Origin: Escherichia coli
GTDB taxonomy: Bacteria > Pseudomonadota > Gammaproteobacteria > Enterobacterales > Enterobacteriaceae
Length of the DNA stretch: 4,925 nucleotides
Reading direction: 5' to 3' (one strand)
Assembly (NCBI RefSeq): GCF_003334255.1
Contig: NZ_QOWU01000106.1
Part shown: piece by piece, positions 1 to 4,925 of the stretch
Layout of the letters: each line of letters starts with the position of its first letter
Position numbering within the stretch: position 1 is the stretch's first letter
Position numbers and translations under genes: made by a program
The notes under the pieces: generated by a model
Database searches by the model: none
Told to the model about the DNA's origin: nothing
The model's input: only the letters and a program-made list of their open reading frames with translations

Positions 1-244
1 CCGGATGCCGCCAGGCAGCCGGGAGCCGAAGGTGCGCCCGGCAGACAGGACAACACTGCAGTAGTCAGAATCAGAGCAGGAAGAAAAAGAGAATAATCAC
101 AGGGAAGGTGATGTGATTTCTGACAGGCCATAACCAGAGAAGGCGGGGGAAAAGAACGGGCGCCGCAGGCGCGCGTTCATCCCCGTTCCTGAAGGGAAAC
201 GACCTTCCTGAAGTCAGGTTGTTCATGCCCGTACAACATCAGCA

Positions 245-350: not shown

Positions 351-509
351 CTACTTACCGGATTCGTAAGCCATGAAAGCCGCCACCTCCCTGTGTCCGT
401 CTCTGTAACGAATCTCGCACAGCGATTTTCGTGTCAGATAAGTGAATATCAACAGTGTGAGACACACGATCAACACACACCAGACAAGGGAACTTCGTGG
501 TAGTTTCAT
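351..509 (-). CDS. hok: Hok toxin (type I toxin-antitoxin, small membrane-depolarising peptide, 52 aa)
   Basis: Manual translation of the minus strand from ATG (complement of 507-509) to TAG (complement of 351-353) gives [52 protein letters not shown]. From memory this matches Hok of plasmid R1 / FlmA of F essentially residue for residue. It has a hydrophobic N-terminal transmembrane segment, lies wholly inside the overlapping mok frame, and sits immediately downstream of psiA as in IncF plasmids. Confidence 0.92.
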
Positions 510-567
510 GGCCTTCTTCTCCTTGCGCAAAGCGCGGTAAGAGGCTATCCTGATGTGGACTAGACAT
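355..567 (-). CDS. mok: Mok (modulation of killing) leader ORF overlapping hok; its translation is coupled to hok translation
   Basis: 70-aa ORF in the track that overlaps the hok CDS in a different frame, the defining arrangement of hok/sok-family loci. ATG at complement of 565-567 with GAGG about 8 nt upstream on the minus strand. Mok has no known independent function. Confidence 0.7.
523..551 (+). promoter_or_regulatory. Candidate sok promoter (-35 TTGCGC, -10 TATCCT, 17-bp spacer), located inside the hok/mok coding region
   Basis: Hexamers read directly from the plus strand; the position gives a transcript of Sok-like length ending at the hairpin/U-tract near 612-623. Match to the sigma-70 consensus is moderate (4/6 and 4/6). 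Confidence 0.4.
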
Positions 568-623
568 AGGGATGCCTCGTGGTGGTTAATGAAAATTAAC
601 TTACTACGGGGCTATCTTCTTTC
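558..623 (+). ncRNA. sok: Sok antisense RNA (about 65 nt), antitoxin of hok; boundaries approximate
   Basis: Plus-strand transcript predicted from a candidate promoter (TTGCGC 523-528, 17-bp spacer, TATCCT 546-551). It is antisense to the mok SD/start region (mok ATG at 565-567). It ends in a long imperfect hairpin (about 574-612, apical stem GUUAAU-GAAA-AUUAAC at 585-600) followed by a U-rich tract (613-623). Length and position match what is known of Sok; the exact 5' and 3' ends are not determined. Confidence 0.55.
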
Positions 624-685
624 TGCCACACAACACGGCAACAAACCACCTTCACGTCATGAGGCAGAAAGCCTCAAGCGCCGGG

Positions 686-1993: not shown

Positions 1994-3952
1994 TCAGGCG
2001 GCATCAGCCAGGTTATCGGTGCGTTCAGTGGCATCTGTCTGTGGATGTGGTGCACACATCCAGCCTGGAACCCAGCGGTTGTCTTTCATATGGTGCTCTG
2101 CATGTTCAGCCGCATCACCTTTCTTCATCTTCTCCGCGTCCCGTGCGGCACCGGACAGTCCGGCCTCATTCAGGGCTGCGATAATCTGCGGCTTTTTCAG
2201 GTGTCCGAAGAAGTTTGCTTTTGTCGGCTGCCACCAGTCGCGCATGTGGAATCCGATAGCGCTTTCCAGCGAGTCAAGCGGACTGCGTGACGTGTGACCA
2301 CACTCACGGGTCTGGACACCGTTAAGGCTGCATGCGGTGCAGAAACTGAGCAGGGATAACAGCACCTCCTGACTGAGGGACAGGAATGTCGTCATGTCCC
2401 GTGACCATCCCTCCGGCAGCAGGGCTGCAAGACGGGATTTTTCTGCCATCAGCGCCATGAATGCGGCACCTTCCTTCCCCGATGGCGCATCGCTGGTCAG
2501 CGAATAATGTTCACATTCCAGGCTGATTTGTGCTGGTTTACTGTACGCCCCGCTGCCAAACACATTCAGGCAGAGCGTCCATGCCAGCAGTGCCAGAGAT
2601 TTGTCCGGCTGCTGCATGAGTGCCGCCTGGACTGCCAGCGTGCGCTCTGAGGACATTTTCGTCAGCAACGGCAGGCTGATTTCCTCCACTGACGCTTTCT
2701 CCTGCACCTGTTCCGTGCGGTCAGCGTCGTCAGTCGCGTCATCTTCACTGCGCAACTGCACACCACGCTGGACACATACGTTGCCATAACGCCAGGACAC
2801 CACCACACCGCTTCCGGCACGTATCTCCGGCGTCCACGCTCTGACCTTCGCCATGCAGCGCATCAGCTTCATTTCTGCTTCCAGCAGGTCGGATTCCTCA
2901 CACTGGTTTTCCAGCGCGTCGTAACGCGTCATCAGTTCGTTCAGGCGTTCGTCTTCCGCCTCCGTCAGCACCGCTTCCGGCTCCGGCAGACAGCGGTATG
3001 TTCCGGCATCCTCACGGCACTCACCGACAGGCTCCATGCGCCCGGCGCACCATTCCCAGCCTTCGGCTTCCCGAAGGTGTTCAGCGACAGCCTGGAGTTT
3101 TTCCAGCAGGGCGGCATCGAGCGCCACGCGGTCGACATAACCGTCCCCGTCATCGCTGAACAAATCGGTGCGCAGTTCGTCTGGCGAGAAGGCATCAGCC
3201 CCCACGAAGCGGAATTTACTGTTCCCAGCCACCGCCACTTCACTTTCGGTCACCAGACGACGAATGGTCTGTACTTCCGGTTTACCGCCCCATCCCGACT
3301 GACAGGCGGCTTCAAACACCTGCACCTGACGCGCGGTGTCGTTCTCCAGCGCCAGCGCCTGACAGTGTTCGGTGGTGATGCGGTCTTCTGCCAGCGCATC
3401 GAGGATGACAGGCGCAAGGTCAGCCAGTTTCAGCATTCGCTGAACGTGGCGGGGTGAATAGCCCAGCAAATCACCGATGTGTGCAGGTGTTTTGCCTTCC
3501 TGCGCCATTGCGCGGAATCCGGCAATCTGTTCGGCAGGGTGCATATCCCGACGATGACCGTTCTCGGTCATTGATGCGGCAGTCGCCAGCTCCTGCGGAA
3601 TAATTTTTACGCGGACAGGCCAGTCAGCCGGAATGATGTCACGCTCTGCCAGCATGTTGAGTGCTGCCAGTCGGCGACCACCTGCGGCGACACCGTAACG
3701 GTCACCTGGCAGGGCATGAACAACCAGATTCTGCAGCAGGCCGACTCCCTTAATGGAATCAGCCAGTTCACTGACGGACTCCGCAGAATACGGCACCGTG
3801 CGCACATTCAGCGGTGATTTAATCAGTGAATCCAGCGGCACGCTCACTTCCTCCGTCTGCGCCAGCAGGGCAGACAGTGCAGTTTCCTGCGTTTTTACAG
3901 ATTTACGGCTTGCTTTGCGGGTGGTTTCTGGTTCACACTTCGTTACAGGCAT
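1994..3952 (-). CDS. ParB/Srx N-terminal-domain protein (652 aa) with HTH and a long uncharacterised C-terminal region; leading-region ParB-like protein
   Basis: The N-terminal roughly 200 aa shows ParB N-domain hallmarks: box-I-like LIKSPLNVRT, arginine-rich box-II-like VAAGGRRLAALNMLAE, and a downstream HTH-like segment TPAHIGDLLGYSPRHVQRMLKLADL. The remaining roughly 430 aa has no motif I recognise (no DPPY/NPPY methyltransferase motif, no obvious nuclease motif). Start called at the second ATG (complement of 3950-3952), which has AAGGGG with a 6-nt spacer; the track's first ATG (3958) abuts the SD. Confidence 0.88.
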   Translation of the reverse strand: MPVTKCEPETTRKASRKSVKTQETALSALLAQTEEVSVPLDSLIKSPLNVRTVPYSAESVSELADSIKGVGLLQNLVVHALPGDRYGVAAGGRRLAALNMLAERDIIPADWPVRVKIIPQELATAASMTENGHRRDMHPAEQIAGFRAMAQEGKTPAHIGDLLGYSPRHVQRMLKLADLAPVILDALAEDRITTEHCQALALENDTARQVQVFEAACQSGWGGKPEVQTIRRLVTESEVAVAGNSKFRFVGADAFSPDELRTDLFSDDGDGYVDRVALDAALLEKLQAVAEHLREAEGWEWCAGRMEPVGECREDAGTYRCLPEPEAVLTEAEDERLNELMTRYDALENQCEESDLLEAEMKLMRCMAKVRAWTPEIRAGSGVVVSWRYGNVCVQRGVQLRSEDDATDDADRTEQVQEKASVEEISLPLLTKMSSERTLAVQAALMQQPDKSLALLAWTLCLNVFGSGAYSKPAQISLECEHYSLTSDAPSGKEGAAFMALMAEKSRLAALLPEGWSRDMTTFLSLSQEVLLSLLSFCTACSLNGVQTRECGHTSRSPLDSLESAIGFHMRDWWQPTKANFFGHLKKPQIIAALNEAGLSGAARDAEKMKKGDAAEHAEHHMKDNRWVPGWMCAPHPQTDATERTDNLADAA

Positions 3953-3981
3953 AATCATCCCCTTATAATTGCTTATGTCCT

Positions 3982-4003
3982 GCCGGACGTTCGCGCGTCC
4001 GGC
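3982..4003. other. Intercistronic GC-rich hairpin between the DUF905 gene and the ParB-like gene (stem gccggacg/cgtccggc, 6-nt loop)
   Basis: Perfect 8-bp inverted repeat 3982-3989 / 3996-4003. It lies between the DUF905 stop (4011) and the ParB-like SD/start (3952). Confidence 0.45.
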
Positions 4004-4010
4004 ACCTCTC

Positions 4011-4244
4011 TTACTTAAGAATCCCGAAATCCCTGATGTACCGGTTCATCCAGTACCCGGCACAGTCCTCAAAATTCCAGGAGCGCCAGATCAACGTGCC
4101 ATCCTGACGGACAACCAGGCGAAAATGCGTTCCCTGATCATCCTCGATAAAGACATTCCGGTACTGTGCGGCAACGGCTTCGGCCTGTTTGCGGGTAAAA
4201 GGACCGTCCGGCAGTCCCTGAAGTATTCTGAAATATTCGCTCAT
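4011..4244 (-). CDS. DUF905 family protein (YkfF-like), 77 aa, function unknown
   Basis: Translation [77 protein letters not shown] shares the GPFTRxQAxAV...EDDQGxHFRLVVR...WRxWNFE...NRYIR core with E. coli cryptic-prophage YkfF, as I recall it. The track ORF starts at a GTG (4271); I call the ATG at complement of 4242-4244, preceded by GGAGAG on the minus strand. Confidence 0.8.
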
Positions 4245-4262
4245 CCTCATCTCTCCGGTGAT

Positions 4263-4281
4263 GCCCCGCACTGGACGGGGC
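4263..4281. other. Intercistronic GC-rich hairpin between ssb and the DUF905 gene (stem gccccg/cggggc, 7-nt loop)
   Basis: Perfect 6-bp inverted repeat 4263-4268 / 4276-4281, read directly. It lies between the ssb stop (4300) and the DUF905 SD/start (4244) and is not followed by a U-tract in mRNA sense. Confidence 0.45.
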
Positions 4282-4299
4282 GGTTGTCACTGTCTTTCG

Positions 4300-4827
4300 T
4301 TAGAACGGAATGTCGTCATCGAAGTCATACGCGGGTTCAGACGGCTGCTGAGGCTCCGGCTGCGCGGCCTTACGTCCACGGCCTTTCGTTTTCGCGCCTC
4401 CTTTTTTCGGTTCCGGCTGTGATTCCGGCTGAGGCTGACCGCTGAACTGTTGCGCCTCTTCCGGCTGAGTCTGAGTACCTGCGGCACGTCCCAGCATCTG
4501 CATGGTGCCCGTGGTCTTAACAAGAATTTCGGTGACGTAACGGGTGATACCGTTATCCTCCCAGCTACGGGTGCGAAGCTGACCTTCGATGTAGACCTGC
4601 GCGCCCTTGCGCAGATACTCACCAGCCACTTCCGCGAGCTTGCCGAACAGCACCACGCGATGCCATTCTGTCTGCTCCCGTATCTCCCCCGTCTGTTTGT
4701 CGCGCCAGCTTTCTGACGTGGCCACCTGCAGGTTTGCCACTGCGCCCCCGTTTGGGATGTAACGGACTTCCGGATCTTTTCCCAGACGACCGACAAGAAT
4801 GACCTTGTTAATGCCACGAACTGCCAT
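4300..4827 (-). CDS. ssb: Plasmid-encoded single-stranded DNA-binding protein SSB (175 aa)
   Basis: Translation [48 protein letters not shown]... is a canonical OB-fold SSB N-terminus. The C-terminus has a Gly/Pro/Gln-rich linker and the acidic tip [11 protein letters not shown] at complement of 4825-4827 is preceded on the minus strand by AAGGAGA with a 7-nt spacer. The track's extra 13 N-terminal codons (to 4866) have no SD and are rejected. Stop TAA at complement of 4300-4302. Confidence 0.95.
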
Positions 4828-4925
4828 GATGTGTCTCCTTCTGTTGATGTTTTCAGCCCCCATCATCTGTTGAGTTTCGGGAGCCGCGGTTTTGACGTTT
4901 TGCGGGGACCTGCTCTTTGTTCCCT

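What the first reader, a model, noticed from the sequence alone, without database searches (positions are those of the whole stretch)
4300..4480. Plasmid SSB with a repetitive Pro/Gln/Glu-rich linker and a conserved acidic tip
The C-terminal third is low complexity ([24 protein letters not shown]), encoded by repeated ccggctg-type DNA motifs (about 4350-4460), and ends in DFDDDIPF, the SSB protein-interaction tip. The plasmid SSB is therefore expected to engage host replication and repair partners through the same tip while differing from the host SSB in its linker.
Basis: partly seen in the sequence, partly recalled or inferred. Interest (0 to 1): 0.2.

Follow-up and report, generated by a model that had tools for sequence, protein, structure and literature searches.

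The report
Ordinary IncF plasmid SSB tail
This stretch encodes the disordered tail and partner-binding acidic tip of a well-known single-stranded-DNA-binding protein carried by F-type conjugative plasmids; it is ordinary, except that a strictly conserved basic patch in the middle of the tail is unstudied in the literature I could search.

Summary
Window 4300-4480 (minus strand) encodes residues 116-175 of a 175-aa SSB (CDS 4300-4827). The quoted peptides are present and the last eight residues, DFDDDIPF, are identical to E. coli SSB. CCGGCTG occurs four times in 4356-4467, each time in frame as Gln-Pro-Glu. The copies are dispersed, not tandem, and there is no excess nucleic-acid structure.

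The gene is the ssb of the IncF plasmid leading region (ssb-DUF905-parB-like-psiB-psiA-hok/sok). The identical protein occurs on at least 1000 contigs and passes NCBI's plasmid-SSB subfamily model. OB-fold residues are conserved, and the tail is predicted to be disordered.

- The linker is not simply Pro/Gln/Glu-rich. It has a Lys/Arg/Gly core, [15 protein letters not shown], that is gap-free and nearly invariant across 80 allelic tails.
- The flanks of this core are mosaic, and their indels map to the QP(E) repeats.
- A comparable basic patch 22-25 residues from the C-terminus occurs in two other leading-region SSB lineages, but it is rare among SSBs in general.

The function of the patch is unknown.

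Verdict: already known, low interest.

The parts
4300..4827 (-). ssb coding sequence: 175 codons plus a TAA stop at 4300-4302. This is the plasmid leading-region single-stranded DNA-binding protein.
   Evidence: ORF and translation. RefSeq CDS WP_000290793.1 lies at the same coordinates in L001. NCBIfam NF010292 scores 366 bits against a cut-off of 265. The identical protein cluster P0032 has 930 members on at least 1000 contigs.
4835..4840 (-). Shine-Dalgarno sequence AAGGAG, 7 nt upstream of the ATG at 4827.
   Evidence: Read directly from the sequence. It supports the start at 4827 rather than 4866.
4492..4827 (-). OB-fold ssDNA-binding and tetramerisation domain, residues 1-112.
   Evidence: Pfam PF00436 matches residues 6-108 (E 3e-37). 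The domain is 77.9% identical to E. coli SSB residues 1-113, with all key aromatic and basic residues conserved. AF2 pLDDT is 91-96 with a beta-barrel plus one helix. PDB hits reach 1e-63.
4408..4491 (-). N-terminal part of the disordered linker, residues 113-140 ([28 protein letters not shown]). It is Q/P/E-rich with net charge -3, and it is the hypervariable, indel-prone part.
   Evidence: Composition. Gaps occur in 10-38% of 80 unique allelic tails, and there are two deep allele types. pLDDT is 43-51 with no secondary structure.
4363..4407 (-). Basic core of the linker, residues 141-155 ([15 protein letters not shown]). It has 7 K/R and no acidic residue, and it is invariant across alleles.
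   Evidence: The core is gap-free and 88-100% conserved in 80 unique tails. Synonymous differences between alleles are present. It is absent only from the pO157 deletion allele.
4402..4407 (-). A6 run (codons K141 and K142), a homopolymer frameshift site.
   Evidence: L010 has A8 here and reads into another frame, losing the tip. P0143 shows a frameshift at the same place.
4330..4362 (-). C-terminal part of the linker, residues 156-166 ([11 protein letters not shown]).
   Evidence: Translation. The segment has alternative alleles, QPEPQPQPPEGDD and QPEPQPPSEPE.
4303..4329 (-). Acidic tip, residues 167-175 (YDFDDDIPF), the motif that binds SSB-interacting proteins.
   Evidence: The last 8 residues are identical to E. 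coli SSB. Y167, F169, D171, D172, I173, P174 and F175 are invariant or nearly so (99-100%) in 80 allelic tails. Its role as the partner-binding peptide in E. coli comes from PMC7145534.
4356..4362 (+). CCGGCTG copy 1, the complement of CAG CCG G, i.e. Q156-P157-E158.
4413..4419 (+). CCGGCTG copy 2, i.e. Q137-P138-E139.
4425..4431 (+). CCGGCTG copy 3, i.e. Q133-P134-E135.
4461..4467 (+). CCGGCTG copy 4, i.e. Q121-P122-E123.
4849..4925 (.). First 77 nt of a 638-nt repeat that lies upstream of ssb. By position it corresponds to the Frpo2-type single-stranded-DNA promoter region, but only its edge is in the window.
   Evidence: Window 4849-4925 matches L001 3001-3077 at 100%. The whole repeat, L001 8397-9034 against 3001-3638, is 99.4% identical. 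PMC9849209 describes Frpo2 upstream of ssbF and Frpo1 about 5 kb away.

Best explanation
The interval encodes the C-terminal tail of the SSB of an IncF conjugative plasmid, of the Ssf/SsbF type.

The protein has three parts: an N-terminal OB fold that binds ssDNA and (inferred) forms homotetramers, a ~54-residue disordered linker, and a 9-residue acidic tip. The tip's last eight residues equal those of the host SSB.

The gene lies in the leading region, just downstream of an Frpo-type repeat. In F, the ssb gene is transcribed from the incoming single strand directly after transfer (literature). [quoted passage not shown] It also speeds the first plasmid duplications (shown for F). Through the host-identical tip it can recruit the host's SSB-interacting proteins (inferred for this allele).

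The repeated ccggctg DNA motif is the antisense of CAG-CCG-GAA/G. It is a by-product of a recurring Gln-Pro-Glu tripeptide, using what I recall to be preferred E. coli codons. Its main consequence is evolutionary: these short direct repeats are where in-frame deletions and duplications of the linker arise.

The linker is a charge-blocked polyampholyte with three segments: acidic Q/P/E-rich, a +7 Lys/Arg/Gly core, then acidic Q/P/E-rich plus the tip. Because charged linkers abolish high cooperativity in E. coli SSB chimeras, this SSB is predicted (inference) to bind ssDNA less cooperatively than the host protein.
For: Identity and context:
- The window is 100% identical to IncF plasmids, with annotated neighbours DUF905, ParB-like, psiB and hok.
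- sok RNA is found by Rfam.
- The identical protein occurs on at least 1000 contigs.
- The plasmid-SSB subfamily model NF010292 scores 366 bits (cut-off 265), while the related subfamily model NF006533, whose profile closely matches E. coli SSB in length and which I take to be the chromosomal type, falls below its cut-off (252 against 260).

Domain evidence:
- Pfam SSB matches, and PDB E. coli SSB matches at 1.3e-63 with full-length alignment including the tip.
- Key OB residues are conserved.
- AF2 gives a confident OB fold for residues 1-112, and no secondary structure with pLDDT 43-64 for residues 113-175.

Repeats:
- The four CCGGCTG copies are all in frame as QPE.
- There is no tandem array and there are no inverted repeats.
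- There is no excess folding of the T-strand DNA (z +1.57) or the mRNA (z +0.89).

Indels at the repeats:
- The pO157 allele lacks 87 nt, with CAGCCG at both junctions.
- P0043 has an extra QPES, P0082 lacks 12 aa, P0092 has a 12-aa duplication, and P0064 and P0149 lack PEPQQ.

Function, from the literature:
- PMC9849209: Frpo2-dependent early expression, colocalisation with host Ssb, delayed first duplication in the ssbF deletion, and cited complementation of ssb mutants.
- PMC8406263: SOS suppression and T4SS translocation of the pED208 SSB.
- PMC7145534: the tip is the partner-binding site, and a charged IDL abolishes high cooperativity.
Against: - Nothing in the sequence contradicts this reading.
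- The functional experiments cited were done on the F and pED208 alleles, not on this allele.
- Deleting ssbF has no measurable effect on conjugation frequency in isogenic matings, so the selective benefit is subtle.
- Reduced cooperativity is inferred from linker charge only.
- Only 77 nt of the upstream Frpo-type repeat lie inside the window, so promoter function cannot be judged here.
Confidence: 0.93

Rival explanations
1. The conserved Lys/Arg/Gly core of the linker ([15 protein letters not shown]) is a plasmid-specific functional module. On this reading the tail is more than a tether plus tip. Candidate roles are a positively charged signal that recruits SSB to the conjugative type IV secretion system for transfer into the recipient, an electrostatic partner that masks or tunes the acidic tip and inter-tetramer contacts, or an extra nucleic-acid contact.
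For: - The core is gap-free and 88-100% conserved in 80 unique allelic tails, while both flanks vary, recombine and carry indels.
- Synonymous differences exist within the core.
- The core is retained across two deep N-linker types and three tip types.
- Among 70 diverse SSB representatives that end in PF, only 5 have at least 6 K/R in a 13-residue linker window, and 3 of those belong to this family.
- One other such representative (P0205), and a Klebsiella protein from the close-relative search (P0087), both lie in conjugative-plasmid leading regions with ParB_N, PsiA and/or PsiB genes (plus T4SS genes next to P0205).
- In all three lineages the patch ends 22-25 residues from the C-terminus (hand count from the tails).
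- The pED208 SSB is translocated through an F-type T4SS.
- T4SS signals are often C-terminal positively charged motifs.
Against: - No experiment bears on this patch.
- F-type T4SS signals characterised so far (TraI TSA/TSB) are internal structural domains, and many chromosomal proteins are also translocated.
- The patch is followed by a strongly acidic C-terminus, unlike classical VirB/D4 signals.
- The pO157 family allele lacks the core altogether. The one pO157 record examined is typed non-mobilizable; how widespread this allele is was not measured.
- The alleles sampled are closely related, so conservation is partly due to shared ancestry.
- Only two outside lineages could be placed in genomic context, and P0237 sat on a 1.1-kb contig.
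- I could not retrieve the pED208 sequence to see whether it has the patch.
Confidence: 0.3
2. The clustered CCGGCTG motifs are a functional DNA or RNA element in their own right, such as protein-binding sites or a structure in the transferred single strand or the mRNA, and the coding sequence accommodates them.
For: The motif is significantly enriched: 7 in the window against 1.08 expected, with 4 within 112 nt. The leading region is known to use structured ssDNA elements (Frpo).
Against: - All four copies are in the same codon phase and encode the same tripeptide.
- There are no inverted repeats and no tandem array.
- The T-strand DNA and the mRNA fold no better than shuffles (z +1.57 and +0.89).
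- The number and spacing of copies vary freely among alleles through in-frame indels.
- The other N-linker allele type (GSAPQQNAQ...) lacks most of the copies.
Confidence: 0.03
3. The gene is a decaying, functionally redundant copy of ssb whose tail is drifting. On this reading the low-complexity linker reflects relaxed constraint.
For: - The ssbF deletion does not change conjugation efficiency.
- The linker shows frequent indels.
- Frameshifted or truncated variants occur in databases (L010, P0143, P0125, P0146).
Against: - The ORF is intact, and the OB residues and the tip are conserved.
- The identical protein occurs on at least 1000 contigs.
- A match covering at least 80% of the gene, which chromosomal ssb1 does not reach in the rows shown, is present in 2978 of 5426 complete E. 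coli genomes.
- Nearly all indels are in frame.
- Measurable phenotypes exist for SOS suppression and duplication timing.
- Some frameshifts sit at a homopolymer and may be sequencing errors.
Confidence: 0.03

Closest known systems
F plasmid SSB (Ssf / SsbF), and the same protein family on IncI1-type plasmids such as ColIb-P9
   Same: - Same gene, position and neighbours (ssb-DUF905/yfjA-parB-like/yfjB-psiB-psiA) downstream of an Frpo-type repeat.
- The OB domain is nearly identical across the IncF alleles sampled.
- Identical basic core [15 protein letters not shown].
- Same NCBIfam subfamily, NF010292.
   Different: The 179-aa allele that I take from memory to be F's own (cluster P0084, and L007-like) ends in ...QPQPPEGDDYGFSDDIPF. 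This window's allele ends in ...[16 protein letters not shown], the host-identical tip. The window allele is also 4 residues shorter in the N-linker (SQPEP against PQAEAGT). At the DNA level the two tip modules differ at many synonymous sites. The window allele is therefore a mosaic of modules, not a point variant.
E. coli chromosomal SSB (ssb1; PDB 1eqq, 4mz9)
   Same: - OB fold is 78% identical, with all ssDNA-binding and tetramer residues conserved.
- Tail length is similar (63 against 65 residues).
- The last 8 residues, DFDDDIPF, are identical.
   Different: - The host linker is Gly/Gln/Pro-rich (26% Gly) with only 3 charged residues of 56. The plasmid linker is 11% Gly, has 14 charged residues of 54 (charged-residue counts by hand) and carries the +7 core.
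- DNA similarity stops at nt 338 of the gene (73% identity over nt 13-338).
- The tip codons differ at three synonymous sites and the stop codon, so the shared tip is not a recent gene conversion.
- The score on the related subfamily model NF006533, which I take to be the chromosomal type, is below its cut-off.
SSBs of Klebsiella IncFII(K)/IncFIB(K) plasmid leading regions (e.g. pGR-1870, WP_004152644.1)
   Same: - Leading-region location with DUF905, psiB, psiA and hok.
- OB domain about 70% identical.
- A Lys-rich patch (AKSPKAKGGKKGRQ) in mid-linker, about 25 residues from the C-terminus.
   Different: - The linker sequence is otherwise unrelated (Ala/Pro/Gln-rich).
- The tip is PPMDDEAPF or PPMDDDAPF rather than YDFDDDIPF.

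Membership tests
Bacterial homotetrameric SSB (Pfam PF00436 / TIGR00621) | N-terminal OB-fold domain matching the family profile | tested here: met
   PF00436 matches residues 6-108, E 3e-37. TIGR00621 scores 187 bits against a cut-off of 54. AF2 gives a confident OB fold for residues 1-112.
Bacterial homotetrameric SSB (Pfam PF00436 / TIGR00621) | Conserved ssDNA-stacking and tetramer residues (E. coli W40, W54, F60, W88, H55, G15) | tested here: met
   All are identical in a pairwise alignment with E. coli SSB. The list of residues that define the family comes from my own knowledge.
Bacterial homotetrameric SSB (Pfam PF00436 / TIGR00621) | Intrinsically disordered linker between the OB fold and the tip | tested here: met
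   Residues 113-175 have no predicted secondary structure and pLDDT 43-64, with low-complexity composition. This is a prediction only.
Bacterial homotetrameric SSB (Pfam PF00436 / TIGR00621) | C-terminal acidic tip ending in D-D-(D)-I-P-F | tested here: met
   YDFDDDIPF; the last 8 residues are identical to E. coli SSB. PMC7145534 gives MDFDDDIPF as the partner-binding peptide.
Bacterial homotetrameric SSB (Pfam PF00436 / TIGR00621) | ssDNA binding, tetramer formation and tip-dependent binding of partner proteins | not testable with these tools
   These need biochemistry. Papers cited report complementation of ssb mutants by the F allele.
Plasmid leading-region SSB subfamily (NCBIfam NF010292 / PRK13732; F Ssf type) | Score above the curated subfamily cut-off over the full length | tested here: met
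   366 bits against a cut-off of 265, covering 1-175 of a 175-position profile. The related subfamily model NF006533, which I take to be the chromosomal type, scores 252 against 260, below its cut-off.
Plasmid leading-region SSB subfamily (NCBIfam NF010292 / PRK13732; F Ssf type) | Location in a conjugative-plasmid leading region with psiB and psiA, on the strand templated by the transferred strand, downstream of an Frpo-type repeat | tested here: met
   Gene order and strand are shown in L001, with traM and oriT to the left. A 638-nt repeat starts 22 nt upstream of the ATG. The Frpo2 description comes from PMC9849209.
Plasmid leading-region SSB subfamily (NCBIfam NF010292 / PRK13732; F Ssf type) | Early (zygotic) expression from ssDNA, SOS suppression and faster first duplication | not testable with these tools
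   Shown for the F and pED208 alleles, not for this allele.
Type IV secretion substrates with a C-terminal positively charged signal (considered for the basic core) | Demonstrated T4SS- and coupling-protein-dependent translocation that depends on the basic residues | not testable with these tools
   Only the translocation of the pED208 SSB as a whole is reported. No signal was mapped, and I could not fetch pED208.

The most novel reading that the evidence does not exclude
The invariant Lys/Arg/Gly core of the linker ([15 protein letters not shown]; window 4363-4407) sits 22 residues from the C-terminus. It has counterparts at the same distance in two other leading-region SSB lineages. On the most novel reading it is a functional module specific to conjugative-plasmid SSBs. 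It could be a recruitment signal for co-transfer through the T4SS, or an electrostatic switch that pairs with the acidic tip and flanks to change cooperativity, condensation or partner access on the incoming strand. That would explain why plasmids keep their own SSB despite an abundant host one.
Probability: 0.3. Interest if true: 0.45.

Novelty: already known. Interest (0 to 1): 0.14.

Why it matters
Plasmid SSBs with a host-like tip have been known since the 1980s, and this exact protein is annotated on hundreds of plasmids.

The useful residue is descriptive. The tail is modular: a hypervariable Q/P/E segment that grows and shrinks at QP(E)-coding repeats, an invariant basic core, and three interchangeable tip modules that differ at two positions next to the invariant F-x-DDIPF.

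The basic core and the tip alleles may tune which host partners are engaged, or whether the protein is exported with the DNA. If so, that would bear on the open question of what plasmid SSBs are for (raised in PMC9849209).

Tried and rejected
- A linker-only homology search returned just 30 short E. coli fragments and said nothing about how widespread the linker is.
- Fetching the reference F plasmid (AP001918) and pED208 (AF411480) failed, because neither is in the collection. The F allele is therefore inferred from the 179-aa clusters plus memory. Whether the translocated pED208 SSB carries the basic patch is unknown.
- Tandem Repeats Finder found no array in the linker, and there are no inverted repeats.
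- Folding the T-strand DNA and the mRNA of 4300-4480 showed no excess structure.
- The promoter and terminator scan of 4000-4925 found nothing.
- Three plus-strand ORFs (3969-4445, 4258-4422, 4450-4716) and the alternative minus-strand frame (4287-4817) hit no NCBIfam family. None is annotated in RefSeq, so I treat them as spurious.
- Recent gene conversion of the tip from the chromosome is rejected, because the codons differ and the DNA is not alignable beyond nt 338.
- The context of P0237, one of the other basic-patch SSBs, could not be read because its contig is only 1.1 kb.

Full report
**What is at the coordinates**

The window's longest ORF at its right end runs on the minus strand from 4866 to 4300. 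The real start is the ATG at 4827. It is preceded by AAGGAG at 4835-4840, and RefSeq annotates exactly this 528-nt CDS on identical plasmids. The product has 175 residues and ends in ...[20 protein letters not shown].

The finding's interval 4300-4480 covers residues ~116-175. This is the whole region after the OB fold, which ends at ...GTMQML (residue 112).

**Checking the observation**

CCGGCTG occurs 7 times in the 4925-nt window against 1.08 expected, and none of 200 shuffles reached 7. Four copies lie within 112 nt, at 4356, 4413, 4425 and 4461. All four are in the same codon phase and read, on the coding strand, CAG-CCG-GA(A/G) = Gln-Pro-Glu at codons 156, 137, 133 and 121.

They do not form a tandem array. 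The direct-repeat families are 11-16 nt long and there are no inverted repeats. Neither the transferred-strand DNA nor the mRNA of this stretch folds better than shuffled controls (z +1.57 and +0.89).

The DNA repetition is therefore real and non-random, but it follows from a recurring tripeptide using what I recall to be preferred E. coli codons.

The tail composition is Q 16%, P 16%, G 11%, A 11%, E 10% and K 8%. 'Pro/Gln/Glu-rich' fits the two flanks. The centre (residues 141-153, [13 protein letters not shown]) has seven K/R and no acidic residue.

**What it is**

The window is 100% identical to many E. coli IncF plasmids. In the annotated plasmid p1NQ3 the order of genes, starting from traM/oriT, is:
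- SLT-domain gene
- DUF932 gene
- hok/sok
- psiB (with the psiA ORF upstream of it)
- a 652-aa ParB-like gene
- DUF905 gene
- ssb
- a methyltransferase gene

All leading-region genes lie on the strand templated by the transferred strand. Rfam finds sok at 507-683.

The protein evidence is as follows:
- It matches Pfam SSB (E 3e-37) and E. coli SSB structures at 1.3e-63 over its full length.
- It matches NCBI's plasmid-type SSB subfamily NF010292 at 366 bits (cut-off 265). It falls just below the cut-off of the related subfamily model NF006533, which I take to be the chromosomal type (252 against 260).
- The OB domain is 77.9% identical to E. coli SSB, with G15, W40, W54, H55, F60, W88 and the basic DNA-contact residues conserved.
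- AlphaFold2 with a 26-sequence alignment gives a confident OB barrel for residues 1-112 (pLDDT 91-96). Residues 113-175 have no secondary structure and pLDDT 43-64.
- The identical protein forms a cluster of 930 member sequences on at least 1000 contigs, named 'MULTISPECIES: single-stranded DNA-binding protein [Gammaproteobacteria]'.
- A match covering at least 80% of the gene is present in 2978 of 5426 complete E. coli genomes. In the rows shown, chromosomal ssb1 aligns over at most 62% of it, so these are plasmid-type copies.

**How it works, from the literature**

- In F, ssbF is expressed within minutes of entry from the single-stranded promoter Frpo2, which lies just upstream.
- SsbF colocalises with host Ssb.
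- Deleting ssbF does not alter conjugation frequency but delays the first plasmid duplications.
- Earlier work showed that it complements chromosomal ssb mutations (PMC9849209).
- In E. coli SSB the last nine residues, MDFDDDIPF, are the binding site for SSB-interacting proteins.
- The linker governs cooperative ssDNA binding, and a more highly charged linker abolishes high cooperativity (PMC7145534).

Here the tip is identical to the host's over eight residues. The linker is 26% charged (14 of 54), against 5% (3 of 56) in the host; I counted these by hand from the tail sequences.

My reading has two parts. First, this SSB recruits the same host partners. This is inferred for this allele; the supporting experiments cited above were done on the F allele. 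Second, it binds ssDNA with lower inter-tetramer cooperativity, which is inference only.

I aligned nine IncF alleles and the tails of the 120 closest 90%-identity clusters. Among 80 unique tails:
- The N-linker (residues 118-140) is variable, with gaps in 10-38% of sequences. It has two deep allele types, GRAAGxQTQPEE... and GSAPQQNAQ....
- The basic core K141-A155 has no gaps and is 88-100% conserved.
- Among the 101 tails that end in IPF (81 unique; one is a chromosomal E. coli-type tail, dropped to leave the 80 above), the main tip forms are YDFDDDIPF (41, including this window), YGFSDDIPF (30) and YNFDDDIPF (25).
- Y167, F169, D171, D172, I173, P174 and F175 are invariant or nearly so (99-100%).

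N-linker type and tip type occur in several combinations, so the alleles are mosaics.

The indels sit at the QP(E) repeats:
- P0043 has an extra QPES.
- P0082 lacks 12 residues.
- P0092 has a 12-residue duplication.
- P0064 and P0149 lack PEPQQ.
- The pO157 allele lacks 87 nt, with CAGCCG at both junctions. This deletion removes the basic core.

The A6 run that encodes K141-K142 (4402-4407) is a frameshift site. L010 has A8 there and loses the tip.

The chromosomal ssb gene aligns to the plasmid gene only over nt 13-338, at 73% identity. The tip codons differ at three synonymous positions and at the stop codon. The shared tip is therefore maintained by selection and not by recent gene conversion.

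**How unusual is the basic core?**

I took the 150 best 50%-identity cluster representatives. Seventy of them end in PF. Only five of those have at least 6 K/R in any 13-residue linker window, and three of the five belong to this family.

Of the other two:
- P0205 lies beside ParB_N, PsiA, SLT, TrbC and VirB4 genes, so it is on a conjugative plasmid.
- P0237 is on a 1.1-kb contig with no readable context.

A Klebsiella IncFII(K)/FIB(K) leading-region SSB also carries a patch, AKSPKAKGGKKGRQ. In all three lineages the patch ends 22-25 residues from the C-terminus (hand count from the tails).

This suggests a feature specific to leading-region SSBs, but the sample is small, it is not phylogenetically corrected, and no control set of plasmid SSBs without patches was placed in context.

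None of the nine open-access papers that met my search terms on plasmid SSBs contains the word 'linker'. The classical sequence comparisons of plasmid SSBs from around 1990 are not in the searchable library, so the patch may have been noted there.

**Rivals**

- A functional DNA or RNA element made of the CCGGCTG copies is unlikely. The copies share one codon phase, there is no excess structure, and copy number varies freely among alleles.
- A decaying redundant gene is unlikely. The ORF is intact, the OB domain and tip are conserved, indels are in frame, the gene is very widespread, and phenotypes have been published.
- The only reading with some novelty is that the basic core has a plasmid-specific role, as a T4SS recruitment signal, an electrostatic partner of the acidic tip, or an extra nucleic-acid contact. 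I put this at about 0.3.

**Verdict**

The gene is a standard IncF leading-region ssb, and interest is low. The conserved basic core and the repeat-mediated length polymorphism are the only points that go beyond the textbook picture.

Noticed in passing
window 1-90 and 4849-4925 (L001 3549-3638 and 8397-8473): Both ends of the window lie inside two copies of a 638-nt direct repeat (L001 3001-3638 against 8397-9034, 99.4% identical) that contains an internal inverted repeat. By position these are the Frpo1- and Frpo2-type single-stranded-DNA promoter regions. In F they are reported as 92% identical; here they are almost identical. The window is essentially the segment between them.
   Followed up: partly
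window 351-530 (-) and 507-683 (-): A hok/flmA-type toxin ORF ([52 protein letters not shown]) and a sok antitoxin RNA (Rfam RF01794, 88.9 bits, E 1.2e-19) lie at the left end of the window.
   Followed up: partly
L008 401-853 (pO157, NZ_CP018244.1): The pO157 ssb allele (150 aa) has an in-frame 29-codon deletion that removes the whole basic core while keeping the OB fold and the tip. Its junctions have CAGCCG microhomology. It is a natural core-less variant, on a plasmid typed as non-mobilizable.
   Followed up: partly
L010 401-985; database proteins P0143, P0125, P0146: Frameshifted ssb variants replace the acidic tip with a long basic tail read from another frame. In L010 the cause is A8 instead of A6 at the Lys-Lys codons. 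These could be real mutants or homopolymer sequencing errors.
   Followed up: partly
L014 65-880 and 1664-2206 (Klebsiella contig FLWJ01000024.1): A Klebsiella plasmid leading region carries two tandem ssb-DUF905 modules, followed by parB-like, psiB, psiA and hok genes. Both SSBs have the Lys-rich mid-linker patch.
   Followed up: no
database proteins P0093, P0098, P0125: Some predicted proteins fuse the SSB tail to PsiB (P0093; Pfam PF06290 + PF00436) or to the DUF905 protein (P0098 and P0125; PF06006 + PF00436). They presumably arise from deletions or frameshifts in the leading region.
   Followed up: no
H60, NZ_CM165891.1 4117662-4118151: A plasmid-type ssb (93.9% DNA identity over 92% of the gene) sits on an E. 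coli chromosome. This agrees with the plasmid-to-chromosome transfers of ssb reported in PMC8297927.
   Followed up: no
window 4287-4817 (-): A second reading frame of ssb on the same strand is open for 176 codons. It hits no NCBIfam family, and it is the frame into which the frameshift variants read. It is most likely a compositional accident.
   Followed up: partly
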